This document shows, piece after piece, positions 16,712 to 37,991 of a stretch of DNA of 64,000 bases. The notes under the pieces are model-generated. The model made no database searches and was not told the DNA's origin. It worked only from the letters and a program-made list of their open reading frames with translations. A program made the translations under genes and the position numbers. The DNA comes from Trypanosoma brucei (taxonomy: Eukaryota), in NCBI GenBank assembly GCA_000002445.1, contig CP000071.1:1312001-1376000 (forward strand). Reading direction: 5' to 3'. The first letter of the stretch is position 1. Each line of letters begins with the position of its first letter.

Positions 16712-16820
16712 TTGATGTCCATCAATAAACAATCAAGCGAGTAGCGACTCAAATAAACGGTAATAAGAAAACAAAGAAAAAAATTAAAGCTGTATATGTG
16801 CGAAGGTACCGGTACAGCAA

Positions 16821-17034
16821 CACACATACACACACACACACACACAAATGACGAAAAGAGGGGTGAGGGAATAAGTTTTAAAAACAACAACAACAACACC
16901 AAACAAACAAACGGAGACATATAATAAATAATAACAATAACAGCGGAAGCAAAGAAAGGTAATATGCGGCATAGCCTCTGTTTCCCCTCGGACCCCTGTT
17001 ACCTTGTAGACATCACCACACACACACACACACA
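16821..17034. repeat. two (CA)n microsatellites (16821-16846 and 17014-17034) flanking a (CAA)n/(AAC)n stretch
   Basis: Read directly from the sequence. Confidence 0.9.
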
Positions 17035-18712: not shown

Positions 18713-18714
<2 letters not shown>

Positions 18715-18764
<50 letters not shown>

Positions 18765-18790
18765 CTACAAATAAATAAATTTATTTATTT
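18715..18790. repeat. compound microsatellite (AT)n(GT)n followed by (AAAT)/(TTTA) units
   Basis: Read directly from the sequence. Confidence 0.95.
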
Positions 18791-19171
18791 TTCCTTGTAT
18801 GCGCAGCCATAAACGGAGGGCAGAGAAAAAAAAAATGTCAGGGATGGAGGAGCGAATGCGAGGAAAATTGCCCCGCCGCCGTTACCACCACTCACTTGTA
18901 ATGCTTCATTGGATGCTCCCTTGCACAGGCAACCACGCACCTACACGTTCGTACAACTCTCAACACCTCCGCCACCACCAGCGAAACCACCAAACACATC
19001 AACAGATTTCAATCTGCCAACAAAATAGAAGTAAAGAAGGACGAAACCAAGAGACATGATGCAAAGTCGCTCCCCTCCCAACCAACGCCCTGCTTCACAT
19101 CTTGCCATCCACCTTCTGATTTTTTGGTTGTGGCCCTTCGTCGTACCACCCACTCTTATTACAATCTGGAT

Positions 19172-21421: not shown

Positions 21422-22454
21422 CGTAGTTGATATCGCTTGTATTCCAGTGATGCAGTTGTAGCTCCACTCCCCGTATGTATATGTCTATTTTGTATATGTA
21501 GGTCCCTCTTCTATCACTTACCCGATTCCCTCTCCCCTCTTCTCACGTATGAACGACCCCGACCTTTTTAAATGAAATGCCCCCTGTGGGTGAGCCGAGC
21601 AACTCGAATGGACGCGTGTGTCCCTCGCCTAGTAGGCACAATTGCTACTCGTTTAGTCCTTATACCGGCTAAAATGTTGATCACTATGCACTGTCCGAAT
21701 AACTTGTCAGAAGACTCCCTGGTTGTTTGTTGTTATTCCACAAGCACCTCTTCGTCAGATTCTGCGTACCTCCTTCCCCTTTCCTCTCTCTTCTGTTGTT
21801 CCTTACTCACTAACTGCTGCTTAGTTCTTCCCTTGAACCCAACTATAACTTCCTTCTTCCGCACTGCAGCTCCGCAAACGTGCCACGCTGTCCCTGTATA
21901 TATATGCGTGTGCGCACTTATGTGTGTTTCCGTCCTTGAGTCTATTAATCCTTCCTCCCCAGAACACAACTAATACTTTTAATGCCTCTTTTCCACTGCT
22001 TCCCTCACTTACCCTCGTCTCTTCCTTACACGGACTGTGTCTTATTAACTGGGAATGTGACGTTCCTTCACCCAGCGCCAGGGGTACGCGCTTGCCCTTC
22101 CCTTGTCCCCTAAAAAGATCTTCTTCCCTTTCTTTTTAAATCAATCCTTGATTTTCTTTTATTCTTTTTTCCTTCTTTTTCCCTCTTTCGAAAAAAAAAT
22201 ATTAACCTCCTCTTACCTTCCTTCCCACAGGCCAACTTTTTTTTTCCGCCGGCCCTGCGGTCTGTTATTCCCTCTTGGCTTCTCCTTTTCCTATGGGAGT
22301 ACCTCTGTTTACTGTGCCTCTTCCCTCTTATATTTCCTTTTCGATCTTTACTTCTTATTCCTTATTTCTCTTTCCTCGATTGTTCTTTTATGTCCCTGCC
22401 GATGTTGTTTTACCCACCTCTAGTTCCCTTTTCCCAGTCACCTCTGACAGGTCA

Positions 22455-22560
22455 ATAACCAAAAGATGTTAAAAACAGAAACGAAAACCCAAGGATAAAA
22501 TCGAATGACACCTAGACAAAAAAAGATAAAAAGAACTATTTAGTGTTCAAAAACAAATGT
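22455..22560 (-). promoter_or_regulatory. nearest strong polypyrimidine tract upstream of the EIF4G5-like gene, about 1 kb from the ATG
   Basis: The + strand is purine/A-rich here, so the minus strand is pyrimidine-rich. The region between this tract and the ATG at 21421 is GA-rich on the coding strand and has no comparable tract. Confidence 0.4.
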
Positions 22561-23480
22561 TGGAAAGAGAAAGATGGAGAGAAGCTGTCCACGTTCGACA
22601 GTGCAGCACTGTAAAGGTATAAGAGCCAAACATAAATTACACTAAAAGAAGGGATTATTCCCCTCTTTTTTTTTTGTCGGACCACAATGGTAGTGAAAAC
22701 ACGGATAACTTCCAAATCGTGGTTCGCATTTGCATTTTACAAAACGGGGCCTCACGGCACTGACGGAAGGCCCACACGTCCAGTCACCGGGTTTGGGGAA
22801 AAACAGGTGGAAAGGAAGAAAATATAAGCATGAATATAACATAATATAACATGAATGGTTATGCGTGTTTGCACATTATATTGTACAGTCTGGAACCATT
22901 CTCCTTTACTCCCCCCCCCCGTACGACCACTTGGAACAGTTGAAAGGGAGTTTTGGACCGGTTCGTACCCCTCCTTTTCACAGCTCCATAAATTCAGAGG
23001 TACCCACAGCGAACTTCGTGAGATCCTCTTTTTTCTTTTTGTTTTACTTGTTTGTTTCATTGCGCTTTCAGTAACTGAAGAAGCACTTCATCAGACAATG
23101 AACACGTGAAAAGGAAAGGGAAACGAAGGAGGAATAAAAATAAAAAGTGGAAGAAAGTCAGAAGTACCAGCGCCTTGTGAAGCTGTCAGTGAAAGACCCT
23201 CACTCAGTGTGTGGCACCACGATGTGGGAGAAATGAAAAGCAAATGGGAAAAACAAAATTAAACAAAACAAGAGCAACTTCTTCTCCTGTTCAAATTACG
23301 GAAACACACACTTTTCCTCTGCCGCCACACCCAATTCACATATCTTCCAGTACGTCTCACATAACATCAAATATGAAACGAAACTACGGATGGAAACTCA
23401 CGACGAAAATAAAAAAAAGAGTTGCGGAGTGTGTGTATGGGAGGGAGGGAAGTGCATCCCAAACCGAAACAGTTGGCTGC

Positions 23481-25385
23481 TCATTGCTTAAAGAGAAACA
23501 TAATGACGGAAACAAACGTGTGAAAACTAAGGGGCTCCAACGTATTCTTTACCAAATAATTACGGAAGTGAGCACGGTGATCTTCAAACCACAGCAGATG
23601 AACTGCCGGGCTGCGGTTGTATAGCCCCTCCATGTCCTCCCACATAACTTTACCGCATGGCGTGCTGCGTTCCAAAGCCATGAAAAGCGCACGAAGTCGA
23701 ACGGGGTGCGAAAGTAACAACGAAACATCGTCTACCTCAATCGTGGGGGGAATGTCATACATCGGTTGCGGGGTCGCGAACTTCGGTGCAACACGAGAGA
23801 GCACCGAATTACTTATGTACCCGCTGTGGCGGAAGGATAAATCGGCACCCGTCCCACAATCTCTTCCACTCGCGAAGGGCAATAAATACCTTTCCCCGGT
23901 GTGACCCTCTCCAACAGAGGGAAGAGGCACGGCAGCAGTGGCATCACTCTGTAATAGCTCCCGCTCACCTTCGCCATGCTCCTGCTGAAGTTGACCCTGT
24001 TGAGATTGCAAGGGGGGAAATATCGCTTGCACCGCACTTTCCAGTTCGTGCTCGCGCAGTAACAAGTCGAGCTCCCGCGCACGCAGTAGTTTGGCATTTG
24101 CCGCCAATTCTCGCTGTTGCTGCGCCAACTGGTGCTCCAGTTCCTTTGCTTTTTGTTGCCAGTCCCGAGCATTCAACTCACGATTTGCTGTCACGCTTCC
24201 TGGTCGGCCCTTCACGCCCTTCCTCTTCGAACCCAAAGGAGTCTCTCCAGTGTAATACGAAATGTGCGCCTGCATGTTTGCGTTCTTCACCGTCACAGTT
24301 GCCTCTAGTGTCGTCGGCCCTCGGGTTGGGGCACGGAGCCCCGGGAAAACCAGTTCACAGTGGGGCCTAACCGTAACCACACCCGCAATCTCACCGTGAT
24401 CCATGTAGCCGCTGAGTCCCGTGCAACCTGGACTTTCAGATGAAACACCCTGGTCACCCACCTCCGCTGTGGCATGATGAGGGGCGAAACCAAAGATGGC
24501 AGCAATGCATTCCCCCGCCTCTACAAGGTTGGACGCCGCATGCACAGCATTTCTAACCAAATCGTGACCAAAACGGGCTCGGATGCTGTTGGGAGAGTTG
24601 CAGCACGCGTCGACGGGGTTCTCCGGTCCAACGAGGGCTAACAAACGTTCCACGGCGTTTTCGCCCACGAGCTCCACCGCCAAACACGTCCCACCAAAAG
24701 CAAGGTGTTGTGTATGCTTCTGAAGAAGTTCCTGATACGGCAAATTTTCTAGCATGCGATTCCTTAAAACGGCAGCAGACGAGTACCTTGTTTCAGCGTT
24801 GTCGCAACCTTGCTGCACGTCAATGCTTTCTGCAGGAGGGAACAGAGACTTCTTATCACAGCCGTTAACAGACCCCTCGCTTGTTTCTCCATCATCAGCA
24901 GTTTTCGTTAAACCAGCATTAACGGCGTCACCCCCTTCACAACGAAGCTTCGTCAGCTGCATAATCTCTGCTATTATTACCTGACTTCGCTCTGGTTGGC
25001 TGGAGCCCTGCTTACTATCACTCTCACCGTCATTACTATTGCCCGAGCTTCCCCTCTCAGCGTTGTCCATTGCTCGCAGAGGTGTGGACTCGAGTTGCTT
25101 GTCACTGCTTGACTGGTTTTGGGAGATATTACCGGCCTTACGGTCGGGAAAAACTTTGTCAACCCTGTGTTCTGCGTACCGGGAGCGCCGGACGCTCGGA
25201 AACATCTTCACGATCATTTCGGCCTGCTTTGGTGTTATGATGAAGCTTTTAGCTATCACCCGGAAACCCTCATCTGCCACTATCTGAAGAATATTACGAT
25301 GGTATTGCTCAGCATCAGGTTTGCACAAAAGAAAGGTGTGCTCAGCCACCTGAGTTGCTTGTGCCTTTCTCGTTTTTTTGAACAT
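23481..25385 (-). CDS. nucleoside diphosphate kinase (NDK)-domain protein with a large insertion and a coiled-coil C-terminal region
   Basis: 634-aa ORF. N-terminus HTFLLCKPDAEQYHRNILQIVADEGFRVIAKSFIITPKQAEMIV matches the NDK strand-1/helix region. After an insert of about 150 aa rich in Ser/Asp/Gly, the domain resumes (LAFGGTCLAVELVGENAVERLLALVGPENPVDA...NSIRARFGHDLVRNAVHAASN). The catalytic His is conserved but the flanking GSD is degenerate (HAAS). A coiled coil follows (ELEHQLAQQQRELAANAKLLRARELD). ATG verified. Confidence 0.7.
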   Translation of the reverse strand: MFKKTRKAQATQVAEHTFLLCKPDAEQYHRNILQIVADEGFRVIAKSFIITPKQAEMIVKMFPSVRRSRYAEHRVDKVFPDRKAGNISQNQSSSDKQLESTPLRAMDNAERGSSGNSNDGESDSKQGSSQPERSQVIIAEIMQLTKLRCEGGDAVNAGLTKTADDGETSEGSVNGCDKKSLFPPAESIDVQQGCDNAETRYSSAAVLRNRMLENLPYQELLQKHTQHLAFGGTCLAVELVGENAVERLLALVGPENPVDACCNSPNSIRARFGHDLVRNAVHAASNLVEAGECIAAIFGFAPHHATAEVGDQGVSSESPGCTGLSGYMDHGEIAGVVTVRPHCELVFPGLRAPTRGPTTLEATVTVKNANMQAHISYYTGETPLGSKRKGVKGRPGSVTANRELNARDWQQKAKELEHQLAQQQRELAANAKLLRARELDLLLREHELESAVQAIFPPLQSQQGQLQQEHGEGERELLQSDATAAVPLPSVGEGHTGERYLLPFASGRDCGTGADLSFRHSGYISNSVLSRVAPKFATPQPMYDIPPTIEVDDVSLLLSHPVRLRALFMALERSTPCGKVMWEDMEGLYNRSPAVHLLWFEDHRAHFRNYLVKNTLEPLSFHTFVSVIMFLFKQ

Positions 25386-26691: not shown

Positions 26692-27471
26692 TTACACTTT
26701 TCCAGCGAGCGGAACTCCATACGCCCCACATCTGTGAACCCCTTCCACAATTTGTTTACAAGCGTACCATGCAACGCACTGCTGCGTAAAAAGGTAGTTA
26801 AGTGCCATGAAAAAGCACACAATCACTTCTACCGCAACTTCAACGGATTGAAGTGTGCAATCGGGAGGTTCGTTTTCTTCACTCTGTCGGCAAACATAAA
26901 GGGTGACATGCCCCATTCCAAGCGTAATTGCAGTGAGAGCAAATGCAATGAGAGAAATAAGCTGCTGTATAAAGAATATTTTAGTGCTTGGTTTTTTACA
27001 GTGCAGCAAAATGGACAAGGCAGCAGAAGCCACAACAAATAATAGGGCCACAATACACATGAAACCATGCACAAATCCCCATTCAGTTTTCACCATGGAA
27101 GTTATCCAAGCAACGACAAGTACTACAATTGCCGGAAAGCTCAAAACGGTGCACGTGAGGTTGGTCCACATGACCGCCGCGGACTTCCGCTTTATTTTCG
27201 TCATCTGCTTAGTGAGGTCTATCATATCGCCTTTGTAACGAAGCTGGAAATAAGTGCTTCTACAAAAGAAAAACGGGATGCGGTGCCTGGCTAATTTCCT
27301 ACAACCAAACAACAGATCATCGAAGAGGAACATAAAGACATAAAGTAATTTAAAAAATGTATGGCACTGATGCGGATAATTATGAACACAAATAAAAGGG
27401 GAAAAAAGGAGCGCTGCGATGCGTTTCAAAGGAACCCGTCTCGGAATCTGCAACACAACCATCAGACGCAT
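26692..27471 (-). CDS. hypothetical multi-pass membrane protein
   Basis: ORF with four or more hydrophobic helices in the C-terminal 180 aa. The ATG at 27469-27471 was verified. An alternative in-frame ATG at 27223-27225 (MIDLTKQ...) would remove an N-terminal stretch that reads like translated polypyrimidine. The start is therefore uncertain. Confidence 0.45.
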   Translation of the reverse strand: MRLMVVLQIPRRVPLKRIAALLFSPFICVHNYPHQCHTFFKLLYVFMFLFDDLLFGCRKLARHRIPFFFCRSTYFQLRYKGDMIDLTKQMTKIKRKSAAVMWTNLTCTVLSFPAIVVLVVAWITSMVKTEWGFVHGFMCIVALLFVVASAALSILLHCKKPSTKIFFIQQLISLIAFALTAITLGMGHVTLYVCRQSEENEPPDCTLQSVEVAVEVIVCFFMALNYLFTQQCVAWYACKQIVEGVHRCGAYGVPLAGKV

Positions 27472-27992: not shown

Positions 27993-28814
27993 CTATGGAG
28001 TATGCGCAAGAATCCTCCGAACGCCTTCCCGTTTATGCAATTCAAACGCACGTCGCAACTCCGTGTATTGTTCCTCGCTAATATCTCCCTTACCAAATCT
28101 TTGCGGCACAACTTGCATAAATTTTCCAATAAACAACTCGGGTGGAGGGGCCTTTTCGCTTCCGCCTCCCGCCAACCCAACATCAGACGCAGTCGGGTGG
28201 CTCCGGCGAAGCGCCTCCATCAAATGGCGCTGCTGTTCGAAAGGCACCCGAGGGAATGTCATCAACACATCGCAACGCAACACATGCGGTACGGTACTCA
28301 ACGCGGGCACTAAATGAAGCGACAATCCCTCCAACACATCATCGATGGCTTCACATGTGGACGAACACCCCAAGAAATCGAGCACTGGGGTAAGTATAAA
28401 AAGCGGATGCCGCCGCTGCCAAATGCAAATGTTGTACAGGCGGCGGTAGTAAGCAATGGTGGGAGCCGCTTCAGCAGCTGTTTTTACAGTCCTTGCGGCT
28501 TCGCTGATCCACTCGCATAAAATGCCGCGAGTGGCGTGCAGGATGGAGGAACAACGTGTAAGAACAGGAAGAGGCCACTCCACTAAACGTTGCAAAAAAG
28601 CCTCCGTACTGGTGTCAGAACGGTGGGGTTGCGGTTCAAGTTGCTGACGTCGCTTTTCCTCTGCAACGACCAGCAGTTGTTGAAGAGCCGCGCAGCCGCC
28701 AGCTCGACTATTGAGTGCAATGGAACGCAGTGCCCAAATTGTTGTGGAAGGAGCACGGTAAAGTGAAGTTCGGTCCTGCCAGTGTAACCCCCCAAGCATT
28801 TTGTCATTCATCAT
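27993..28814 (-). CDS. hypothetical protein
   Basis: The track ORF begins with GTG at 28851-28853. The first ATGs (MMNDKMLGG...) are at 28809-28814 and were verified. Ordinary-complexity sequence with no recognisable domain. Confidence 0.45.
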   Translation of the reverse strand: MMNDKMLGGLHWQDRTSLYRAPSTTIWALRSIALNSRAGGCAALQQLLVVAEEKRRQQLEPQPHRSDTSTEAFLQRLVEWPLPVLTRCSSILHATRGILCEWISEAARTVKTAAEAAPTIAYYRRLYNICIWQRRHPLFILTPVLDFLGCSSTCEAIDDVLEGLSLHLVPALSTVPHVLRCDVLMTFPRVPFEQQRHLMEALRRSHPTASDVGLAGGGSEKAPPPELFIGKFMQVVPQRFGKGDISEEQYTELRRAFELHKREGVRRILAHTP

Positions 28815-28938
28815 CTTGGGCGGGAGGAATCTGAAGCAGTTCCAGCGCTTCACACCGCGGAGGGTGAGTTACGGTGCTGTCTGCTGTCTGAGATGCCGGC
28901 AAGTGTTCCTCCTTTGCTTCTTGTACAGCCTGCGTCTG

Positions 28939-28941
<3 letters not shown>

Positions 28942-28976
<35 letters not shown>
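28942..28976. repeat. (TA)n microsatellite
   Basis: Read directly from the sequence. Confidence 0.95.
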
Positions 28977-28978
<2 letters not shown>

Positions 28979-29099
28979 TTTATTTAAGCCTTAGGTTACT
29001 CTTTGTTTTATATCTGCCGCTTATTCTTTCCCCGTTCGCTAACCGCCCAGTGCGGTGATTCCAGCAGCGACACTCTCAAATTACCTTCAGATAGATAGT

Positions 29100-29200
29100 A
29101 AGTTCTATCTAACACAAGAAAATAATAATAATAATAACAATGATAATGATAACAAAAATAATAAAAATAATGATCGCAAGCAATGATAATGTTTGTAAAA
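29100..29200. repeat. (AAT)n / AATGATAAC-like degenerate A-rich repeat
   Basis: Read directly from the sequence. Confidence 0.8.
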
Positions 29201-29547
29201 AAAAAAAAATGAACACCAGCACAACACCAATACTTGTCCATTGCTAACGCCAGCTTTTCCTTCCCTCTCACAACAAAGCAAAAAAAAAAAAAAGAATACA
29301 AGGAAACAAATTCAAAGCGCCAAGCGCTCTTTCCATATTCCCTCCCTATCCATCCCTCCTCCTTCCTTTATCACTGACTATAGTCATTTGTGTGCACCCA
29401 AACTCAGTAACGTTCAGTAAAAGAGGAAGAGGGAATGAAAGTCATAAATGTTCCGCAAGCCTCAGGAGCAAAAACAAATAAATAAATAAAAAAGAGAGAG
29501 AGAGAGAAAGGAAGCCGCAACCGGCGATTCCTCGAGTTCCGCACATG

Positions 29548-29970
29548 TTAACACAACTCAAGCTCAAAAGCTGGCGCCGCCACGCCGAAACGATAGCGGC
29601 ACGGCACATACGGCGGCGTTGGACAGTCGTCATCATCGACATCTCCATCACTATCAGGTGGTAACGCGCGGAGGATAAAATCATCATCATCATCATCATC
29701 GTTATCAATTAGTGCTTCCGCATCCCTCACCACAACACGCCAATCATCTCCTCCCGCAGAAGCGAGTTTAGATGTGAGTGATCCGTCATTATCCTCGTCG
29801 TCAGACTCAAATGGGTTCCGCAGCCGTAAAGGGTAACTGAGTACTCCCAACGTATCATCATCATTATTATCATTTGCCTTTGTATACATTCTATGGTTTG
29901 ATTCTTTGTCGTGGTTAATTAACTTAATGTTTCCCTTCCGCATTTGCGTTTCTAATCCAAGCCCCTCCAT
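29548..29970 (-). CDS. candidate small acidic protein (140 aa), possibly unannotated
   Basis: Intact ATG-initiated ORF at 29968-29970. Ordinary complexity except for Asp runs (DNDDDDDDDF, DGDVDDDD). A strong polypyrimidine tract lies on the coding strand 80-250 nt upstream (30048-30215 on +, purine-rich), as expected for a trans-spliced gene. It sits inside an otherwise gene-free 6-kb gap. Confidence 0.3.
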   Translation of the reverse strand: MEGLGLETQMRKGNIKLINHDKESNHRMYTKANDNNDDDTLGVLSYPLRLRNPFESDDEDNDGSLTSKLASAGGDDWRVVVRDAEALIDNDDDDDDDFILRALPPDSDGDVDDDDCPTPPYVPCRYRFGVAAPAFELELC

Positions 29971-30047
29971 CTACACCCACACGTAAACTATAAAATGGTA
30001 ATAATAATAATAACAACAATAACCCTGTGGGTCAACTGTATGCTCTC

Positions 30048-30215
30048 GAAAGTAAGAAAAAAAGGAAGTTAGCGGCAACGATTCAAGGAAAAAGAGGATG
30101 AGTAAAGGAACGTGAACAAGAAAAAAAAATTGGTTGAAAATAGAAAAGGAAGATTTCAAAGAAAAAAGAAAGAAAGAGAGGAAATAGGAAGAGCACGGGA
30201 CAAAAATTTAAAAAC
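30048..30215 (-). promoter_or_regulatory. polypyrimidine tract (minus strand) upstream of the candidate acidic ORF
   Basis: The + strand is strongly purine-rich (gaaagtaagaaaaaaaggaag...gaaaaaagaaagaaagagaggaaataggaagag). Confidence 0.45.
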
Positions 30216-30555
30216 TATCCGACAGCAACATACGCATGCCAAAGATACGTATACACACGTAGTCACGGGTAACCAAATCTCATCACACGCGTAGTTCAAT
30301 ATCTAACATTACGACAGAGGCGCATAAGAGTGAAGAAGAGCTCAGGTATCAAAATTGTTTCGTGAAGTGATAGTACTAACCGCAGTGGGCCGATATTCGC
30401 AATGCTTTGGGCCTTTCCAAAGCGGATGTATTAAGTCAAGTTTAGGTTAGTGAAGGAGAGGAAATATACATATGTCCATAAATACACCAATACGTGCGGG
30501 TTTAGAGTAAAGAGGAAGATAACAAAGTCATTAACAACATGCAGCACCTCCCTTA

Positions 30556-30578
30556 CATATATATATATATATATATAT
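30556..30578. repeat. (AT)n microsatellite
   Basis: Read directly from the sequence. Confidence 0.95.
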
Positions 30579-30699
30579 TTATTTATTTAATATATACTTC
30601 CTCTCTTTACTGATCCCTCTCTTTTCCTCTTTTTCACTCTATATCCACTCCTTCATTCCCACTTCAGCACTTGCAGCAGGGACTACAGGAAGCACAAAC

Positions 30700-33600
30700 G
30701 GTGTAATCATTGCTCTGTTGACACATTTGCTAGTTTTACAGTCTTCCTTCCCTTTTTTTCTTTCTTCCTCTCATTCTCGCATTAGCCCTCTAAACAAAGG
30801 TAAAACGTGTCAAGGCAAAAGGAAAAAAAGGGGGAGGGTAACATTCTCTCTTTCACTCTTTCGAACCCGAGCGCATTCACACACATATGCACCAACTCCT
30901 CTCCTTTTTCTTCCCCTCCTTTCCTATTTTTTTTTTCTCTCTTTCTCTCTCTATATATATATATTCCCCTGCTCTTTGTTTTTGTTTTTTGTTTGTTTTA
31001 CGTGTGGAATTTTTATGTATTTCTCCTCGTATCGCCTTCCCTTCGCCATGAGGCTCTCAGACATGAGAAATGAGAGAAGTTTCCTTCGCACTCAATTTGT
31101 TCTCTTTTTTTTTTTCTTTTAAGGCTTTTGAAAACTCCCGCACCTCATCTCATCTCATCTCATCTCTCCCCTCCTCCCCCGCCTTCACTTCTCACGCTTT
31201 ACTCCACTCATTCACTCGCCATATATGTTCCGTCACTCATTTCCTTCCCCCTTTTCCCATGGGATCAACAACACCAAAAAAAAAAACAACTGATGATAAA
31301 GTAAAAACAAAAACAAAAACAAGGCAACAACAACGACAAAAGAAATAATAGGGAAGAAACAACACAAGAGTAGGCGGACACTCACAGAAAAATAACCAAA
31401 CAAAACTTATCTGTTTATGCGTTAGTTTTTATTGTTATGAAGGATTACAAGTAAACCAAAAGAAAAAGTTAAAAAAAAGGAGGGGGGTAAAGAAGGGAAA
31501 ATATGGAACGGCCATCTATCAAAAAAGTGAAATGAAAACAATAAAAGACGAACAGAGGACGAAGGGAAAGAACGAAATAAAAAAAAATTTAAAGGACAAG
31601 AAAAGGCTTCAAACATAAAGCAGGGGAACCACTTTTCCTTACTCTTTTCTTTCAAACCTTCCTTCACCACCACAAAAACACACAAACAAGAGAAGACATA
31701 TAAGAGGGAAGAATAGAAATCCACGGGAACGCTTCATTTTTTTTTTTCATTCCTTTCTTCCATTCTTTGCGCACGAATACTGCACAGCACAGCTCGCATC
31801 ATGGAACCAATGAAGGAAGGAAAGAGGAATGAAAGGAAAAGAAAAGAAAAGAAGAAGAAACACACAACATGGGACAATAAATAAAATAAAAGCAGAGAAG
31901 AAAAAAAAGAAGAGAAGAACCCCATTATGTGGTGAGTTATTCCAGTAACTTCTTTTACTTCTTTTTCCATCCACTCTCTTTCGTTACTGCATGTTGCAAC
32001 ACTCACACCATTACTACCAAATACCTCCATAATCGCCCAAACCTTCCATTTTTTTTTACCCCTCCGTTCACAATTCCGTTCATTTTGACTTTGCTTTCAT
32101 TTGGTATTAATATATATATATATATAAATATAAACCACCTGAATGTCCTTTCATTGGATCACTCAGTTTGGCAGTTTTGCTTCCACCTTATTTTTGCCTT
32201 TTTTTTTTCCCTTCCCCCCTCCCTTTCCCTCTTTTATCTCAAGTCCCTTTCGATTTTTTTCTTTTTTTCTTTCTTTTTTTTTTTTTGCTGTTCTTTTTAA
32301 TACTTCCCTCCTCCCTCCCTCCCCTCTCCCTCCAAAAAAACATTCTTGTGGAAGACCGCACGCATACATCACTCAACGTTCCTAAATTTTACCCCCTTTT
32401 CTACTTGTTTTCTTTTCTTTTTTTTTCTTCTTCTTCTTCTTCGTACCCCCGTCCCTCTTATATAACAAAACAAACGAAAAATGAAATTAAGAGGTTTTAA
32501 AAAAGAAAAACTAAACTTCATTTGCGCCATTTATTCCCTTTTCATCCCTCAAATCTTGTTTTTTTTTTAAACCCGGTGGTCTGTTCACAGGCAGATACGA
32601 ACACACACACGTCTCCACCCCTTCCCAAACAAACAAACGCCTTATTCCTCTCGAGATAACTCTCTCTCTCTCTTTTTTTCTTTTTTTTTCTTGCTCCATT
32701 TTTTATTTTATTATTATTATTATTATTTTTTTTTTTGTACTTCATGTGGTTTCTTCCACGTGACATCTTTACCATACGAAATGCCTTATTTTTTCTCTCC
32801 TTTTCCCAAATACGCCAACAAACACACATATTCATTTTGTCTTTCTCATATTTCATTCAACAGCCTCCTTTTGTCGTTCTCTTCTTCTTCCTTTTTTTTT
32901 GTTTTTTTTTCCCTAACGACACACAACAGAGAGAGAGAGAGGAAGAAAAAAAAAATCGAAAAGAAAAAAGAAAGGAAAAGTGGTGATGAAAAGGAAAAAC
33001 AAAACAAAACAAAGAAAGAAAGAAAGACGAAAAAGGAATCACACCACCGCGCGCGAAACAGTAACAATAATAATAATAAAGCAAAGCAAAGCAAAAAAAA
33101 GAAAAAAGAAAAAAGAAAAAAGAAAAAAAAGAAAAACAAATTGCACGAAAAGAGATAAATAAGCCAGAAAGTGGGCAGATGATAAGAGCGGGGAATGGAG
33201 AGAAGGAGGCACACCATCAGTGCGAAAGATCACGGGAAACAAACTTGCTAAAAGTAAAAAAAAAAAAGAAACAAACAAAAAAAAAATTAAATCATGGGAT
33301 GAAAGGGGGGGGGGCGAAGCAAAAAAAGAAAAAGAAAAAGAAAAGTTTGTTTTCCTTTTATTTTCTTTCTGATGCTCAGTTCCTTTCCCTTTGTTTTGTT
33401 TTTAGCTTGCTTTTTCTTTTTTTTTTTGCATCAACGTCTCTCGTCACCGTTCGTTTTCCTTCACATATTTCACCACTTCCGTCACTTACTCACACAAACA
33501 CACTCCCCTCTTGAAGGAAGTGAAGTAAATGAAGAAAAAAGAAAAGAAAAGAAAGAAAGAAACCAAGTGAAGAGAAAGGTAAAAACTTGACCAACGGAGG

Positions 33601-34700
33601 GGAGAAGAAAAAGAAAGAAAAATGTGGAAAACATTTATATATATATATATATATATATTCTTTCTTTTCATTTATTAATTTAAATATAAGAACAACAGTA
33701 AATTTTTTAAAAAATCATCTCCGTCGCCGCCGACATTCTTCTTCGCTTCCCACCAGAAACATAGAAAAAGTTATTTCAACAAAACCACTAGCCGAAGCGC
33801 ATTGTCACAAAAAGGCCGAGGAAAGGAAGAAAAAAAATAAAATAAAATAAAAGAAATGAGGTACTTTGCACGCCCTAAAAAAGAGTCGCTAATAACCTGC
33901 AGATCCCACAAGCGAGAATAAACCAAACAGACAGAGAGCAGGAACGGGCACGCCCACCTTTGCCTGTCATTTTGACTCCTCTCGTTCCCGTCACTCAATA
34001 CAAAACCAAAACAAAACAACAACGCCATAATCATAATTATAACAAACCTCTTCCAATGAAGTTTCCCACCAACTCGTTCACGCACCTCGAAACGCGTTCC
34101 CGCTGGCGCTTCGAAGGAAATAACTTTCATGTGACCTCATTTTCTCTCTTCCCCTTCCTTCCTTCCTTCCTAATCCTAATCCTAACCCTAACCCCATTTC
34201 ATTTCATTTCATTGATTCTGCCGCTTCTCCTCTTTTCTCCTCTCCTTCCCTTCCCTTCCTTCCCCTTCTTTTTTTTTCTTTCTCACTATTTTATTTATTA
34301 AAATTCCCATGTATCATTTACACACACAGCTTTATTACCTCCCCCCTTTTTATCTTTTTTTTTGTTGTTTCCGTTGCATTACCAACTCCAATTATAATCG
34401 CTTCTATATTTACCCTTTTTGACACGTTACCTCTTCCATACACACATGCATATACACATATATAAATATATAAATATATAAATATATATGTGTTTACCCG
34501 CGTCTCTCTCTCTCTCTCGTTGTGTGTGCACGTGTCCCATTTCCTCTTTCTTAACTTCCCTTTGTCTTTTTACCTGCTCCCCTTTCTCTTTCTTTTTTTT
34601 TCTATCTTCTCTGTCTCTTCTTGCCGCCCCTCCATTACCTATGATAACATTTATTCACGATCTTAAAGTTAGCAGAGAAAACGAAGGCCCCTCCCCCCCC
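30700..34700. repeat. about 4 kb of extreme low-complexity polypurine/polypyrimidine sequence with embedded (TA)n, (CATCT)n, (GAAA)n and (ATT)n microsatellites
   Basis: Strand-asymmetric CT-rich and GA-rich blocks alternate, with homopolymer runs of A or T up to about 20 nt. Examples: (CATCT)n at 31144-31166, (TA)n at 32110-32126 and 33636-33658, (GAAA)n at about 33010-33030. Confidence 0.9.
34169..34196. repeat. interstitial telomere-like repeat (CCTAAT)2(CCCTAA)2
   Basis: The sequence cctaatcctaatcctaaccctaacccca is read directly. It is immediately followed by (CATTT)4 at 34196-34215 and preceded by (CCTT)n. Confidence 0.85.
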
Positions 34701-35028
34701 CCCTAAAAAAAAAAAAGAGAGAGAGAAGAATGGAAAAGGAATGCGGTTAAAAAAGTAAAACATCCATGGCTGCAACCACTGACCGCTACGTGCATACACA
34801 TCTACACACGGAAATACGTACGGAAAACGGCATCATCACCACACATGAGGCTGGAGCATAGCGCGAGGATTTACATTATATTATTATATATATATATTTT
34901 TTTCTCCTTCGTTCAATTTCTCCCAACTCTCGTGGCCCTCCCGTTTGCGCCATCAAATAACATTTTATACTCATCCTTCCATCTCAACGTACCTTCTCTT
35001 CTATTCTTCGCGGTATTTACACCCACGT

Positions 35029-36681
35029 CTATTTCCCAACTCGTTTCTTCGGCCCGCCAGTTGCGTTGGTTGTAGCACCGGAGTCACCATCCATATCACC
35101 TTTTGTAAAGGCTGCCATGCCGCGACCACGCTGCAGCTTCGCGGGAGGTTTCACCTCATTTGGTGCGCTATCAACTGTGGGCACTGGTGGAGGTGAAGAT
35201 GCGGTATTGGCACTGACGGGTTGTTGTGGCTCTACACGAGAGGCCCCTCCGCCTTTCCCCTGCCGCATTCCAGGTCGCGAAACAACGCCCTGTTGCCCCT
35301 TGTGTGGAGCATATTCTTGAATAGGCGGGTTGTGGTGTTGTGACGAGTAGTTACCCATGCCGTGGAAGGCCTGGTGGTGATGCATCTCATGATGGAACCC
35401 CTGTCCTTGCATATGGTGCATAGGCATCGATTGGTTATGAGGAACGCGGCCAAGGGGGCCCTGGTATCCTCTGTGCGCATTGGGTATGTTGGGTTGGGAG
35501 TTCACGTACATGTGCATGTTCATGCTATGGCTAGGTGGCATGGCAGCAGCCTCATAGTTTTGCTGCGAGTAGGACGAGTCATCCTGGTCATAGAAAAGGT
35601 TGCACATACCCGGCCAATGTGGCTCACAGTCGTAGCACATATCGTTGTTCGAAATGGCATCAGCTAAGCTTGCTAGGAAGTCCACAACAGGGACGGCAGC
35701 TCCGGGTTTCATTGGTGTATAGGGAGCCGCCGCGGGGTTGAACCCAGCTGCCGTCTGGTTAGCGTCATACTGCATATGATGCGGATCTTCGTTCATCCGC
35801 TTGTGTCGCATCGAGCCATCATCTGCCATACTTGTGGCAGCTGGTGGTGGTGGAGGAGCGGCGGCAGCAGGCGCAGCGGCAGGAGGAGCCGCAGCGGGAG
35901 CGGGAGCAGCGGCAGGAGCCGTGGTGGGAGCCGTAGCGGGAGCGGCGGCGGCGGGGACGGGTGGGGGTTCATTGACAAGTTTCCTCCCGCCAGTGCTCGG
36001 TGGCACGTACGGAGGCTTTTTTTCCTGTGGTCGGTGGACATCCGAGTAGAGCTGCCCCTCATCGAGACCTTCATCGTCGTGAAGGCACTCTTCCCGTTCC
36101 ATCCTGTGAGCGATACCTCGTGTGGATGAACTTTCGATTTCGCGTGCGAGACGATCTGCCTGTGCCCGCTGTTCCTCTGTTATTTTACTGTGGTCCAAAC
36201 GGGTTGTGTAGAACTCTTCCTTGTATGTTGTCTTTACGCCAAAGGACTTCTCATTTGCCTCGAACTGATTCCAAGTACCAGTCTGATGAGGTTCACTCTC
36301 CAACAGCTCACTAACACCGTCATCAGCCCAATCAAACTTGGTGGCACTGAAGTCAGCGCGGCCGGTGTCGGGACGACCAGGCGTCTCGGTGCGAATCTTT
36401 GCATTCTGGACCTCAATCATCACTATGCTCTGATAAGGAATGAACAGGTCATCGGTGAAGTTAACACACGATGGAGAAAGCGGCGACCGTTTGGCGGATG
36501 CAAGGTTTCGGGTGCAACAAATCATAATGCCTGCATCCGTTTCCGCGTCGACATCTGTGCAGGCCACAAATAGACCCTCAACGCACATGTCATCCACCAG
36601 TCGTACCTGCACCACCTGGCCGACTAGGTTCAGGTAGAGGTATTCCAGGCGCTCCATGTTGCTGCTATGAGACCCCTCCAT
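35029..36681 (-). CDS. PBP1: ataxin-2 homologue / PABP-binding protein 1 (LSm + LsmAD domains)
   Basis: 550-aa ORF with an N-terminal Sm-like fold (LVGQVVQVRLVDDMCVEGLFVACTDVD) and an LsmAD domain (FGVKTTYKEEFYTTRLDHSKITEEQRAQADRLAREIE). These are followed by a poly-Ala/Pro tract and a Q/H/M/N-rich low-complexity C-terminal half typical of ataxin-2/Pbp1. ATG verified. Confidence 0.85.
   Translation of the reverse strand: MEGSHSSNMERLEYLYLNLVGQVVQVRLVDDMCVEGLFVACTDVDAETDAGIMICCTRNLASAKRSPLSPSCVNFTDDLFIPYQSIVMIEVQNAKIRTETPGRPDTGRADFSATKFDWADDGVSELLESEPHQTGTWNQFEANEKSFGVKTTYKEEFYTTRLDHSKITEEQRAQADRLAREIESSSTRGIAHRMEREECLHDDEGLDEGQLYSDVHRPQEKKPPYVPPSTGGRKLVNEPPPVPAAAAPATAPTTAPAAAPAPAAAPPAAAPAAAAPPPPPAATSMADDGSMRHKRMNEDPHHMQYDANQTAAGFNPAAAPYTPMKPGAAVPVVDFLASLADAISNNDMCYDCEPHWPGMCNLFYDQDDSSYSQQNYEAAAMPPSHSMNMHMYVNSQPNIPNAHRGYQGPLGRVPHNQSMPMHHMQGQGFHHEMHHHQAFHGMGNYSSQHHNPPIQEYAPHKGQQGVVSRPGMRQGKGGGASRVEPQQPVSANTASSPPPVPTVDSAPNEVKPPAKLQRGRGMAAFTKGDMDGDSGATTNATGGPKKRVGK
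35840..35965. repeat. imperfect (GCN)n trinucleotide repeat inside the PBP1 CDS, encoding a poly-Ala/Pro tract
   Basis: gcggcggcagcaggcgcagcggcaggaggagccgcagcgggagcgggagcagcgg... encodes PAAAAPATAPTTAPAAAPAPAAAPPAAAPAAAAPPPPP on the minus strand. Confidence 0.9.
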
Positions 36682-36984
36682 TTACTTAACTTTTGATGTT
36701 GCCGTCTTTTCTCCGCTCCTCAATTTCCGTTGGTCGTTTACGAAACAAGATACAAACCTCTGTTAGGCGCCTCTCGTACTCTCCTGTAAGGAATTATAGA
36801 ATTTATGATATTCTATTTTCTTCAGCTCCTCCGCGCGGGCGCAAACGAAAAAATATGTCCTCCACCTTCCTGTTCCTCTCCTCTTCGCTTAACGGCACGC
36901 TTTTCTTCCTCAGGCTTCCCTAGCTCTCACCTCTCGCGGTTGAATTTTTTTTTTCTCCTCCTCTTCTTATGACAGTTTAGTTAC

Positions 36985-37035
36985 GAGGGGGAAACAGTGA
37001 GAAAAAGAAAATATAAAATAATAGGGAAAAACGAG
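36985..37035 (-). promoter_or_regulatory. polypyrimidine tract (minus strand) upstream of PBP1
   Basis: The + strand reads gagggggaaacagtgagaaaaagaaaatataaaataatagggaaaaacgag, about 300 nt 5' of the PBP1 ATG on the coding strand. Confidence 0.4.
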
Positions 37036-37288
37036 TTCACTAACCTTCTTTACCCCCTTTTTGGTGCGGTTTCACCTCAGCTAGAAGCCTGTCGGAAGCA
37101 AGCACACAAAACAAAAAAAAGGAATTTAAAAAAGAACAAAAAACCTACAGCTTACTATTGCGTTCTATGATCCTTTTTGTAACGGTTTGGGTGGGTGAGC
37201 AACAAGAGAGAGAGAGGAAAAAGGGAGGTAGATAAAAGGGCAGCAACAAAAACAAAAAGAGGACAACAAAGCGGTGTCCCTCCCCTCG

Positions 37289-37439: not shown

Positions 37440-37991
37440 CTACAGGTACTTATCTAACGTCATCGCCTGTTTGTCCACGCGCTGCAACGGCGGATACAAC
37501 ATGGTACCCGCTGCGGGGAAAAGCACCCCTTGCAATTCTTCTCTGTCATAAACCTTGTTGCGAATGTTACTAAAGTCGTTACGTGCAGGATCCGTCATTT
37601 GTGGAATATCCGTATAAAGTTCCGGTATTACCCGCTGTTGCTCGCGTGGCACAAGGCGAAAGGGGATCTCAATCACTTCCCAATCTCGTTGCTTCCAGCG
37701 CTTGCGGAGCGTTTGCTGGGCGCACCACACATCCACATTGAACTGCACGGTGCGTGGGTCCTTTTTGAAGCGTCGGCCCTGTTTTTTTATATTAACTGGG
37801 CCAATTTCACGCAGGTAGGCGGTTCGTCCACCGAATCGGTTGGCATCATGCAACGGGGTGGTGTTGAAGGTGTGACGTTGACGGAACTGGAATGGTGGAT
37901 GGTCAAATTCTCCCGTTGACACCACCGCAACACTACATTGCAAAGCAGAGGAAGGATGGCTCAGAAAGAGACCATCCCTAACACGCCGCAT
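37440..37991 (-). CDS. hypothetical basic protein (183 aa)
   Basis: ORF of ordinary complexity with ATG verified. Arg/Lys-rich; possibly an organellar ribosomal or RNA-associated protein, which is a guess only. Confidence 0.5.
   Translation of the reverse strand: MRRVRDGLFLSHPSSALQCSVAVVSTGEFDHPPFQFRQRHTFNTTPLHDANRFGGRTAYLREIGPVNIKKQGRRFKKDPRTVQFNVDVWCAQQTLRKRWKQRDWEVIEIPFRLVPREQQRVIPELYTDIPQMTDPARNDFSNIRNKVYDREELQGVLFPAAGTMLYPPLQRVDKQAMTLDKYL

What the first reader, a model, noticed from the sequence alone, without database searches (positions are those of the whole stretch)
28860..35028. A 6-kb gene-poor gap downstream of PBP1 with extreme low complexity
The PBP1 stop (35029) and the next confident gene (start 28814) are about 6.2 kb apart. 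Most of the gap (30.7-34.7 kb) consists of alternating polypurine/polypyrimidine blocks and microsatellites, which is far longer than typical trypanosome intergenic or UTR intervals. Three explanations are possible: a multi-kb regulatory 3'UTR of PBP1; one or more unannotated small transcripts (see the acidic ORF and the 33.7-34.1 kb island); or a decayed repetitive element.
Basis: seen in the sequence. Interest (0 to 1): 0.5.

Follow-up and report, generated by a model that had tools for sequence, protein, structure and literature searches.

The report
Long PBP1 tail hiding small gene
The 6.2-kb "empty" stretch after the trypanosome PBP1 gene is real but ordinary: it is mostly PBP1's very long, repeat-rich 3' untranslated region, followed by one small conserved protein gene missing from the original annotation, and both were already recorded in published RNA-seq and ribosome-profiling tables.

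Summary
28815..35028 is 6,214 bp without an annotated gene, 2.5 times the next-longest of 26 intergenic intervals in the window. In the 30.7-34.7 kb core, 45% of bases lie in purine-only or pyrimidine-only tracts, against 5% in resamples and 16% in other intergenic DNA.

The window is T. brucei TREU927 chr8 1,312,001-1,376,000, so published tables apply directly. Kolev 2010 lists PBP1 (Tb927.8.4540) among genes with alternative 3'UTR processing. Its major poly(A) site gives a 2,359-nt UTR (window 32670), the sites are very dispersed, and the full-length transcript ends at window 29186, giving a 5,843-nt UTR.

The "acidic ORF" (29548..29970, minus strand, 140 aa) is a real gene:
- It is conserved next to PBP1 in T. 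vivax, T. cruzi, T. theileri, T. melophagium and T. grayi.
- Substitutions fall at third codon positions.
- Its codon usage is gene-like.
- It has its own polypyrimidine tract and AG.
- It is listed as a ribosome-footprint-covered candidate CDS in Vasquez 2014.

The 33.7-34.1 kb "island" is not coding, not conserved and not structured. I found no trace of a retroelement, tRNA or Rfam RNA.

Verdict: a long 3'UTR plus a small gene, already known. Interest is low.

The parts
35029..36681 (-). PBP1 (Tb927.8.4540) coding sequence, 550 aa, ataxin-2-like; upstream boundary of the gap
   Evidence: ORF and translation. Its Trypanosoma orthologues carry SM-ATX and LsmAD. Kolev 2010 Table S3 gives the CDS as chr8 1348681..1347029, which fixes the window offset at 1,312,000. 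It is named PBP1 in PMC3985637.
32670..35028 (-). Proximal PBP1 3'UTR, up to the published major poly(A) site (2,359 nt)
   Evidence: Kolev 2010 Table S13 gives the major PAS at 1344670, which is window 32670. No ORF here has a positive codon score. Rich in R/Y blocks and microsatellites. The site lies in an A-rich purine tract (32704..32657, 67% A), so internal oligo(dT) priming cannot be excluded (my inference).
33771..34130 (-). Higher-complexity 'island' inside the 3'UTR; the 119-aa ORF here is not a gene
   Evidence: Codon score -0.094. Has 1-2 nt indels against T. b. gambiense and L002. No blastn or tblastn match in the other species' gaps. Not in the ribosome-profiling candidate list. 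RNA fold z-score -0.56. Only sub-threshold Pfam hits.
30196..32669 (-). Distal part of the long PBP1 3'UTR isoforms, or a UTR-internal transcript; non-coding low-complexity DNA with several internal polypyrimidine tracts
   Evidence: The mean PAS (UTR 3,455 nt), the dispersion of 1,530 nt and the full-length transcript end at 29186 all mean that a substantial share of 3' ends lie beyond 32670. Internal PPTs followed by AG occur near 31921-31808, 31587-31458 and 30843-30811. All ORFs have negative codon scores. Nothing here is conserved across species.
30045..30195 (-). Polypyrimidine tracts plus AG: the predicted spliced-leader acceptor region of the small gene
   Evidence: PPTs at 30195-30156, 30110-30085 and 30069-30047 are followed by an AG at 30045, 75 nt upstream of the ATG by the count. 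An equivalent long PPT (37-106 nt) plus AG lies upstream of the orthologous ORF in all 5 other loci. The SL site itself was not seen in data.
29548..29970 (-). Small acidic protein gene (140 aa), missing from the original TREU927 GenBank annotation, conserved across the genus Trypanosoma
   Evidence: Orthologues sit at the same syntenic position in T. vivax, T. cruzi, T. theileri and T. melophagium, and a homologue is annotated in T. grayi (no locus was fetched for it). L-x-L-x-NPF and DDCPTPPYVPCR-x-x-FG motifs are invariant. Variable columns by codon position are 4/2/20 in 22 C-terminal codons. Codon score +0.318 bits/codon. The only indel against T. b. gambiense is 6 nt and in frame. The exact ORF is listed as a ribosome-footprint candidate CDS with 100% coverage. 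AF2 predicts disorder.
29186..29547 (-). 3'UTR of the small gene, and the end of the 'full-length' PBP1 transcript
   Evidence: Kolev 2010 Table S3 gives the transcript 3' end at 1341186, which is window 29186. T-rich tracts and an AG follow downstream, read directly from the sequence.
28815..29185 (-). Intergenic spacer, polypyrimidine tract and 5'UTR of Tb927.8.4530, including a (TA)17 microsatellite
   Evidence: Sequence and TRF. The function is assigned by inference from the PAS-to-splice-site spacing rule (median 142 nt).
27993..28814 (-). Tb927.8.4530, conserved hypothetical protein (DUF8384); downstream boundary of the gap
   Evidence: Exact protein match to AAZ13218 / XP_847284. PF28361 is recorded on its orthologues.

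Best explanation
The gap is a composite of two ordinary trypanosome features on the minus strand of one polycistronic unit.

(a) About 4.8-5.8 kb is the 3' untranslated region of PBP1, the ataxin-2-like partner of MKT1. This UTR is unusually long and is cut at several places. In trypanosomes each poly(A) site is set by a downstream polypyrimidine tract that directs trans-splicing. This UTR contains many such tracts, alternating with purine tracts and microsatellites, so 3' ends are scattered. The published major site is at 2.36 kb and longer forms reach 5.84 kb.

(b) Near the far end lies a small gene for a 140-aa acidic, disordered protein. It has its own polypyrimidine tract and AG acceptor and its own about 360-nt 3'UTR. 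It is conserved throughout the genus Trypanosoma and carries ribosome footprints.

Shown here or in published data:
- gap size and composition;
- the poly(A) coordinates and transcript end;
- the ORF's conservation, purifying selection and footprints;
- the absence of other coding, RNA-family or retroelement signals.

Inferred, not shown:
- that the ORF's mRNA is trans-spliced at about 30045;
- that internal tracts are normally masked (as DRBD18 does for other long UTRs);
- that the long UTR regulates PBP1 expression.
For: Window identity. Two independent anchors give the same offset of 1,312,000 to Tb927_08_v4: the PBP1 CDS at 1348681..1347029 and the 140-aa ORF at 1341548-1341970 with identical sequence.

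Published transcript data (Kolev 2010).
- Table S3 lists Tb927.8.4540 as 'alt 3UTR' with the transcript at 1349172..1341186.
- Table S13 gives the major PAS at 1344670 (UTR 2,359 nt), a mean UTR of 3,455 nt and a dispersion of 1,530 nt.
- The main text says that genes in this class produce a full-length transcript, a shorter ORF-containing transcript and a UTR-internal transcript. It gives the median 3'UTR as 388 nt, with a range up to about 6,000 nt.

The small ORF.
- Homologues.
- Third-position substitution pattern of 4/2/20.
- Codon score +0.318, while every other gap ORF is negative.
- Ribosome footprints.
- Upstream PPT plus AG in six loci.

Long PBP1-downstream interval in other species. 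It is 2.1-2.9 kb in T. vivax, T. cruzi, T. theileri and T. melophagium, against about 0.4-0.9 kb for most neighbouring intervals.

Negative results. No Rfam family near threshold, no tRNA, no Pfam domain in six frames, and no dispersed repeat.

Precedent. Multi-kb low-complexity 3'UTRs with many internal polypyrimidine tracts are documented for RBP10 (8.5 kb) and DRBD12.
Against: - I could not see raw reads, so the 'full-length' 8-kb PBP1 transcript rests on one supplementary table from procyclic forms. It may partly reflect the small gene's mRNA being assigned to PBP1, because Kolev lists no separate novel transcript here.
- The major PAS at 32670 lies in an A-rich tract and has no strong PPT within about 150 nt downstream, so it could be an internal-priming artefact.
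- No spliced-leader site for the small ORF was found in the stored, truncated tables.
- No peptides support the small protein.
- Frame-0 periodicity of its footprints is a modest 26.6%.
- A regulatory role for the UTR is untested. The motif counts I made were uninformative.
Confidence: 0.8

Rival explanations
1. PBP1's true 3'UTR is only about 2.4 kb or less, ending at the major poly(A) site. The 8-kb 'full-length' transcript would then be an annotation artefact. The 2.5 kb between 32670 and 30200 would be spacer or one or more trans-spliced non-coding 'UTR-internal' RNAs, followed by the independent small gene.
For: - The major PAS is at 32670.
- Kolev states that this gene class yields a shorter ORF-containing transcript plus a putative non-coding transcript.
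- Several PPT-plus-AG candidates lie on the coding strand between 31921 and 30790.
- Kolev did not recognise the small gene separately, so its poly(A) site at 29186 may simply have been credited to PBP1.
Against: - The weighted mean UTR of 3,455 nt and the dispersion of 1,530 nt require many PAS reads well beyond 2.36 kb.
- Kolev classed the locus as 'unambiguous' alternative processing that includes a full-length form.
- The PBP1-downstream interval is 2.1-2.9 kb in four other species, which argues that a long UTR is the ancestral state.
- The 32670 site sits in an A-rich tract and may itself be the artefact.
Confidence: 0.2
2. The whole interval down to 29186 is one 5.8-kb regulatory 3'UTR, and the acidic ORF is not an independently expressed gene. 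Its footprints would be noise on an abundant UTR.
For: - Kolev's transcript model runs straight through the ORF, and no novel transcript is listed here.
- There are no peptides, and frame-0 periodicity is only 26.6%.
Against: - The ORF is intact at the same position in the 5 other species examined, and is also annotated in T. grayi. It has invariant motifs and a 4/2/20 codon-position substitution pattern, which only selection on a protein explains.
- Its codon usage is gene-like.
- Its only indel is in frame.
- A conserved PPT plus AG lies upstream.
- No other ORF of 50 aa or more that I could check in the same UTR was flagged as footprint-covered.
Confidence: 0.05
3. The low-complexity core is a decayed retroposon (ingi, RIME, DIRE or SIDER-like) or another degenerate mobile element.
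For: Only the size and the A-rich and T-rich tracts. Nothing specific was found.
Against: - No reverse transcriptase, endonuclease or any other Pfam domain at E <= 0.01 in six X-masked frames, apart from one sub-threshold ZIP hit in low-complexity sequence.
- With DUST masking there are zero matches to the other 57.8 kb of the window, and one weak internal match.
- A long interval at the same place exists in four other Trypanosoma species with unrelated sequence.
- Subspecies differences are microsatellite-type indels.
Confidence: 0.03
4. The gap hides further genes or structured non-coding RNAs, for example in the 33.7-34.1 kb island.
For: - The island has fewer indels than its flanks within Trypanozoon (2.8/kb against 10-14/kb).
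- The stored ribosome-profiling list contains a few candidate ORFs with coordinates beginning 1344 or 1345, and I could not establish the chromosome for most of them.
Against: - All other ORFs have negative codon scores.
- The island ORF has frame-breaking indels.
- None of the other gap ORFs among 135 stop-to-stop ORFs has a translated match in the other species' gaps; the only hits were the acidic ORF and its antisense.
- No Rfam hit approaches a gathering score, and there is no tRNA.
- The island's fold z-score is -0.56.
Confidence: 0.05

Closest known systems
Kolev et al. 2010 class of 394 T. brucei genes with alternative 3'UTR processing (e.g. Tb927.4.4370)
   Same: Tb927.8.4540 is itself listed in that table. 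It has a full-length transcript plus internal processing sites, which give a shorter coding mRNA and a UTR-internal transcript.
   Different: At 5,843 nt, its full-length UTR sits at the top of the reported range (about 6,000 nt; median 388 nt). The 'UTR-internal' part also contains a conserved, translated ORF, so it is not simply non-coding.
Very long, low-complexity 3'UTRs of T. brucei regulators (RBP10, 8.5 kb; DRBD12 mRNA, 8.4 kb) whose internal polypyrimidine tracts are masked by DRBD18 (PMC9380746)
   Same: A multi-kb UTR on an mRNA for a post-transcriptional regulator, with many internal polypyrimidine tracts, low-complexity sequence and heterogeneous 3' ends.
   Different: DRBD18 binding or dependence of PBP1 mRNA was not tested here and is not stated in the text I read. 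Developmental regulation through this UTR is unknown.
Unannotated small CDSs found by ribosome profiling in T. brucei (Vasquez et al. 2014 candidate list)
   Same: The 140-aa ORF is entry getorf_Tb927_08_v4_-_34015 in that list, with 100% footprint coverage.
   Different: This work adds genus-wide conservation, evidence of purifying selection, a syntenic position and a conserved upstream splice signal. These raise it from a candidate to a confident gene. Its function remains unknown.
ingi / RIME / DIRE / SIDER retroposons of trypanosomatids
   Same: Kilobase-scale non-coding DNA, sometimes inside 3'UTRs.
   Different: No RT or endonuclease remnant, no repeated copy in the window, and no element-like structure. 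The consensus sequences themselves were not available for a direct test.
MKT1-binding (H/N)(D/E/N/Q)PY motif proteins (Singh et al. 2014) and EH-domain NPF ligands: a resemblance of the small protein only
   Same: The small protein has an invariant x-N-P-F near its N-terminus (HNPF in T. theileri, NNPF in T. cruzi), inside a disordered acidic chain.
   Different: The last residue is F rather than Y in every species, and the first position is not conserved (R, C, N, H, Q or D), so the published consensus is not met. No interaction data exist.

Membership tests
Long alternatively processed trypanosome 3'UTR | Continuous sense transcription from the upstream CDS, with mapped poly(A) sites inside and at the end of the interval | not testable with these tools
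   Taken from published tables only: Kolev 2010 S3 and S13 give the transcript at 1349172..1341186, the major PAS at 1344670, a mean UTR of 3,455 nt and a dispersion of 1,530 nt.
Long alternatively processed trypanosome 3'UTR | No protein-coding capacity in the interval | tested here: met
   For 35028..30200, all ATG ORFs of 50 aa or more have negative codon scores. There are no cross-species translated matches, no Pfam domains, and frame-breaking indels in the island ORF.
Long alternatively processed trypanosome 3'UTR | Internal polypyrimidine tracts followed by AG on the sense strand, able to direct internal processing | tested here: met
   20 PPT blocks (20-117 nt, 86-93% Y) lie on the - strand, most with an AG within 50 nt. 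Kolev's median functional PPT is 18 nt.
Long alternatively processed trypanosome 3'UTR | Dependence on, or binding by, DRBD18 (or ZC3H28), as for RBP10 and DRBD12 | not tested
The main text does not name PBP1 mRNA as a target.
Independent trans-spliced protein-coding gene (small acidic ORF) | ORF conserved under purifying selection in related species at the syntenic position | tested here: met
   Orthologues exist in 5 further species, 4 of them confirmed at the syntenic position. Variable columns are 4/2/20 by codon position, and synonymous differences outnumber non-synonymous ones in every pair.
Independent trans-spliced protein-coding gene (small acidic ORF) | Evidence of translation | tested here: met
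   From the literature: Vasquez 2014 candidate CDS table gives coverage of 20.67 per nt, 100% of the ORF covered and 77 frame-0 reads. No peptides were found.
Independent trans-spliced protein-coding gene (small acidic ORF) | Mapped spliced-leader addition site upstream of the ATG | not testable with these tools
   Only the signal is seen: PPTs at 30195-30047 plus an AG at 30045, and equivalents in 5 other loci. No SL site appears in the stored, truncated tables.
ingi/RIME/DIRE/SIDER retroposon remnant | Remnants of reverse transcriptase or endonuclease coding sequence | tested here: not met
   Pfam scan of all six X-masked frames found no retroelement domain.
ingi/RIME/DIRE/SIDER retroposon remnant | Multiple dispersed copies, or similarity to the element consensus including the conserved 5' signature | tested here: inconclusive
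   No copy exists in the other 57.8 kb of the window.
Known structured RNA families (snoRNA, tRNA, etc.) | Match to an Rfam covariance model at the gathering score, or a tRNA prediction | tested here: not met
   The best Rfam hit scores 31 bits against a 90-bit gathering threshold, and all hits lie on microsatellites. ARAGORN found no genes.
MKT1-binding HNPY-motif proteins (for the small protein) | Presence of (H/N)(D/E/N/Q)PY | tested here: not met
   The motif is x-N-P-F in all six species: F replaces Y and the first position varies.

The most novel reading that the evidence does not exclude
The genus-wide conserved, disordered acidic protein encoded just downstream of PBP1 could be a functional short-linear-motif regulator. 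It has an invariant L-x-L-x-NPF motif and an invariant C-terminal DDCPTPPYVPCR-x-x-FG motif. Its NPF motif resembles the MKT1-binding (H/N)(D/E/N/Q)PY motif, so it might modulate the MKT1-PBP1 complex. Its expression is also physically coupled to the choice of PBP1 3' end, because using its splice acceptor necessarily truncates the long PBP1 UTR. A related, milder reading is that the 2-5 kb PBP1 3'UTR has been kept long across Trypanosoma because it mediates feedback control of this ataxin-2 orthologue.
Probability: 0.07. Interest if true: 0.55.

Novelty: already known. Interest (0 to 1): 0.18.

Why it matters
Mostly as a clean-up.
- It shows that an apparently anomalous 6-kb gene desert is the expected signature of a very long trypanosome 3'UTR on an mRNA for a post-transcriptional regulator.
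- It shows that comparative sequence alone can separate the one real hidden gene from about 130 spurious ORFs.
- The practical outputs are that the 140-aa ORF deserves a gene model wherever it is still missing, and that PBP1 belongs with RBP10 and DRBD12 as a candidate for studies of how internal polypyrimidine tracts in long UTRs are silenced.
- No open question becomes newly testable.

Tried and rejected
- Rfam E-value scan of 28-36 kb: only sub-threshold miRNA-model hits on microsatellites.
- tRNA scan: none.
- Pfam on the acidic ORF and its orthologues: nothing.
- Pfam on six-frame X-masked translations of the gap: nothing relevant.
- Profile search of 1.84 billion representative proteins with the small-protein alignment: only the Trypanosoma homologues, plus one weak hit (E 2.5e-4) to a PKA-regulatory-subunit-like repeat protein. 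The hit falls in its acidic, proline-rich pseudosubstrate linker. I treat it as compositional.
- AlphaFold2 on the small protein: disordered, mean pLDDT 53.6, so no fold search was run.
- Counts of 3'UTR motifs (RBP10 UA(U)6, AREs, PUF sites): uninformative or driven by microsatellites.
- RNA folding of the island: z-score -0.56.
- Search for 'Tb927.8.453*' in paper texts: zero papers.
- Siegel 2010: no supplements held.
- Jensen 2014 supplements: no hit.
- Parsons 2015 (the annotation update from ribosome profiling and SL mapping): not held.
- Exact look-up of the window's PBP1 protein failed, and the PBP1 homology search did not return T. brucei's own entry, probably because low-complexity words saturated the candidate list.
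- A few candidate ORFs in the Vasquez list have coordinates beginning 1344 or 1345.

Full report
**What is there**

All long ORFs in the window lie on the minus strand, so the window is part of one polycistronic unit. The ORF 35029..36681 (-) encodes a 550-aa protein. Its Trypanosoma orthologues carry the SM-ATX and LsmAD domains of ataxin-2/PBP1. The next annotated gene starts at the ATG at 28814, and its product is identical to T. brucei TREU927 AAZ13218 / XP_847284, a DUF8384 protein. The upstream neighbour at 37440..37991 is AAZ13220, the mitoribosomal protein ms69. The consecutive GenBank accession numbers imply that the original TREU927 annotation has nothing between PBP1 and Tb927.8.4530.

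**Is the observation more than chance?**

Yes.
- The interval 28815..35028 is 6,214 bp, the longest of 26 intergenic intervals in the window. The next longest is 2,439 bp.
- It has the lowest 3-mer entropy and the highest fraction of pure purine or pyrimidine runs of 20 nt or more: 12.9%, against 6.5% or less elsewhere.
- In the 30.7-34.7 kb core, 45.0% of bases lie in 20-mers that are at least 90% R or at least 90% Y. First-order Markov resamples give 5.4 +/- 1.6%, pooled other intergenic DNA gives 15.6%, and CDS gives 2.9%.
- TRF lists about 60 short-period arrays in the gap.
- On the coding strand, 20 pyrimidine blocks alternate with 26 purine blocks.

This is an extreme of a trend rather than something of a different kind. 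Other long intergenic intervals in the same window reach 21-26%.

**Where the window comes from, and what is already published**

Kolev et al. 2010 (PMC2936537) Table S3 gives the Tb927.8.4540 CDS as Tb927_08_v4 1348681..1347029. Vasquez et al. 2014 (PMC3973304) list an ORF at 1341548-1341970 (-) whose 140-aa sequence is identical to the window ORF 29548..29970. Both anchors give the same offset, so window coordinate x corresponds to chr8 position 1,312,000 + x.

Kolev's procyclic RNA-seq tables then apply directly.
- Tb927.8.4540 is one of 394 genes with "unambiguous alternative processing" in the 3'UTR. Its transcript runs 1349172..1341186, which is window 37172..29186. That is a 5,843-nt 3'UTR.
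- The major poly(A) site is 1344670, which is window 32670 (UTR 2,359 nt).
- The read-weighted mean UTR is 3,455 nt and the dispersion is 1,530 nt.

The paper gives a median T. brucei 3'UTR of 388 nt with a range up to about 6,000 nt. It gives a median distance of 142 nt between a poly(A) site and the next splice site. It states that genes of this class yield a full-length transcript, a shorter ORF-containing transcript and a UTR-internal transcript. No "novel transcript" is listed anywhere between chr8 1,305,834 and 1,377,077, which covers the whole window.

**The acidic ORF is a real gene**

- *Homologues.* The only close hit to the 140-aa product is T. equiperdum TEOVI_000095000, at 99% identity. 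T. b. gambiense and a second Trypanozoon assembly carry a called 138-aa gene at the same place.
- *Synteny.* I fetched the PBP1 loci of T. vivax, T. cruzi, T. theileri and T. melophagium. Gene order is conserved: TPH, RING, RAI1, ms69, PBP1, a small ORF, DUF8384, a 175-aa gene, NDK. An ORF of 83-93 aa lies just upstream of the DUF8384 gene in each. It is annotated in three of them and unannotated in T. theileri.
- *Conserved motifs.* These ORFs align with the T. brucei ORF. L-x-L-x-N-P-F is invariant near the N-terminus and DDCPTPPYVPCR-x-x-FG-x-x-A-x-AF is invariant at the C-terminus, around a variable acidic middle.
- *Family range.* Profile searches add T. grayi and find nothing outside Trypanosoma.
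- *Purifying selection.* Across 22 C-terminal codons the variable alignment columns fall 4/2/20 by codon position, and synonymous codon differences outnumber non-synonymous ones in every species pair.
- *Codon usage.* A codon log-likelihood trained on the window's genes gives +0.318 bits/codon. Most real genes score 0.07-0.54, and every other ATG ORF of 50 aa or more in the gap, on either strand, is negative.
- *Indels.* Its only indel against T. b. gambiense is 6 nt, in frame.
- *Splice signal.* A 37-106-nt polypyrimidine tract followed by an AG 54-105 nt before the ATG is present in all six loci. In the window this is PPTs 30195-30047 and the AG at 30045.
- *Translation.* Vasquez 2014 list the exact ORF as a ribosome-profiling candidate CDS, with coverage of 20.67 per nt, 100% of the ORF covered, 77 frame-0 reads and no peptides.
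- *Structure and family.* AlphaFold2 with the six-sequence alignment predicts disorder (mean pLDDT 53.6, no secondary structure), with local confidence maxima at the two motifs. Pfam finds nothing.

**The rest of the gap**

- *Cross-species conservation.* blastn of the gap against the four other species' gaps finds only one conserved block that is not low-complexity: 29554..29636, the C-terminus of the small ORF. tblastn of all 135 stop-to-stop ORFs of 30 aa or more finds nothing else.
- *The 33.7-34.1 kb island.* Its 119-aa ORF has a negative codon score. It carries 1-2-nt indels between subspecies and is absent from the footprint list, which is sorted by length and stored past 119 aa. It folds no better than shuffles, z-score -0.56. 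It does have fewer indels than its flanks within Trypanozoon (2.8/kb against 10-14/kb), which is simply what non-repetitive sequence shows.
- *RNA genes.* Rfam gives only far-sub-threshold hits on microsatellites, and there are no tRNAs.
- *Retroelement.* Nothing supports one. There are no Pfam domains in any of six frames, no DUST-filtered match to the rest of the window, and one weak internal match.

**Comparative context**

The interval from the PBP1 stop codon to the small ORF is 5,058 bp here. The corresponding lengths elsewhere are:

| Species | PBP1 stop to small ORF |
|---|---|
| T. b. gambiense | 5,014 bp |
| T. vivax | 2,921 bp |
| T. cruzi | 2,108 bp |
| T. theileri | 2,946 bp |
| T. 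melophagium | 2,910 bp |

Most neighbouring intervals are about 0.4-0.9 kb. The one longer "interval" in T. vivax comes from a truncated RAI1 gene model. A long PBP1 3' region is therefore ancestral in the genus and has been further expanded in the T. brucei group. Its sequence is not conserved. Within Trypanozoon the gap evolves mainly by microsatellite-type indels, at 7-14 events per kb.

**How it most likely works**

By established trypanosome biology, poly(A) sites are set by downstream polypyrimidine-tract-directed trans-splicing (summarised in PMC9380746 and Kolev 2010). On that basis, the many sense-strand polypyrimidine tracts in this UTR are potential internal processing signals. This fits the very high poly(A) dispersion reported for PBP1.

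Bishola Tshitenge and Clayton (PMC9380746) show that other regulators (RBP10, 8.5-kb UTR; DRBD12, 8.4-kb mRNA) have such long, low-complexity UTRs. They show that DRBD18 binds polypyrimidine tracts in them and prevents internal splicing and polyadenylation. I infer, but did not test, that the PBP1 UTR is handled the same way and that its length provides a platform for post-transcriptional control. The last strong PPT-plus-AG (30195-30045) serves the small gene. Its mRNA would run from about 30045 to the mapped end at 29186, which is about 0.86 kb plus the spliced leader and poly(A) tail. The small protein is best described as a disordered acidic carrier of two short linear motifs. Its function is unknown.

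**Caveats**

- I could not inspect reads.
- The 8-kb "full-length" PBP1 transcript may partly reflect the small gene's poly(A) site being credited to PBP1.
- The 32670 site lies in an A-rich tract and could be an internal-priming artefact.
- No SL site for the small ORF was seen in the truncated stored tables.
- I could not check whether TriTrypDB now carries a model for the ORF. No paper text mentions a Tb927.8.453x identifier, and Parsons 2015 is not held.

**Novelty and verdict**

Both components are already recorded in supplementary tables of published genome-wide studies, and the kind of feature is well described: a multi-kb low-complexity 3'UTR with internal processing, plus a small ORF missed by the first annotation. 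What this analysis adds is genus-wide conservation and selection evidence for the small gene, and the conserved length of the PBP1 3' region. The finding is real, explained and ordinary. Interest is low.

Noticed in passing
window 29548..29970 (-), residues about 48-54 and 113-135 of the product: The small acidic protein has an invariant L-x-L-x-N-P-F motif. It resembles the MKT1-binding consensus (H/N)(D/E/N/Q)PY but does not meet it, and NPF is also the classical EH-domain ligand. The protein also has an invariant DDCPTPPYVPCR, which contains PxxPxR. It lies immediately downstream of PBP1, the partner of MKT1.
   Followed up: partly
P0020 (972 aa), residues about 658-696: The only non-Trypanosoma hit of the small-protein profile (E 2.5e-4) is a triple-repeat PKA-regulatory-subunit-like protein. 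The match falls in its acidic, PPPP and R..SVSAEAY pseudosubstrate linker. It is probably compositional, but the alignment R-x-x-[LV]-S-A-x-A-[FY] is suggestive.
   Followed up: no
window 34168..34194: An interstitial telomere-like repeat, (TTAGGG)2(TTAGGA)2 on the minus strand, lies inside the PBP1 3'UTR. Pentamer and tetramer microsatellites lie next to it.
   Followed up: no
window about 34690..34716 (-): A T-run followed directly by a G-run (reading tttttttttttt-a-ggggggggggg-a-gggg) sits about 320 nt after the PBP1 stop codon. It could form a G-quadruplex or a slippage hotspot.
   Followed up: no
window 26692..27471 (-): The 259-aa ATG ORF has a negative codon score (-0.05), while the orthologous gene is called at 174-177 aa in T. 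b. gambiense, T. vivax, T. cruzi, T. theileri and T. melophagium. The long ORF's start is probably over-extended.
   Followed up: no
window 51866..52399 (-): This 177-aa TTG-start ORF, which I counted as a gene in my map, has the lowest codon score in the window (-0.21). It may not be a real gene, or it may have an atypical composition.
   Followed up: no
window 16733..19171 and 21422..23480: These are the two next-longest intergenic intervals (2.4 and 2.1 kb). They are also rich in R/Y tracts (21-26%). They lie downstream of the MIF4G-domain gene (19172..21421) and the NDK-domain gene (23481..25385), and probably also represent long 3'UTRs.
   Followed up: no
L006 3422..8382 (T. vivax GCA_021307395.1): The RAI1/EDRF1 orthologue is called as only 553 aa here, against 1,270 aa in another T. 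vivax assembly (L007) and 1,276-1,296 aa in other species. This leaves a spurious 3.3-kb 'intergenic' interval and is likely an annotation or assembly problem.
   Followed up: no
window 35032..36681 (-): The window's PBP1 protein was not found by exact look-up, although both neighbours were. The homology search returned no T. brucei entry either, probably because the Ala/Pro-rich low-complexity region saturated the word-based candidate list.
   Followed up: no
L008 14020..14149 and the equivalent in L009 (T. cruzi): In T. cruzi the small ORF's stop codon is only about 130-160 nt from the annotated start of the DUF8384 gene. That is very short for a 3'UTR plus splice signal plus 5'UTR, so the DUF8384 start may be called too far upstream there.
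   Followed up: no
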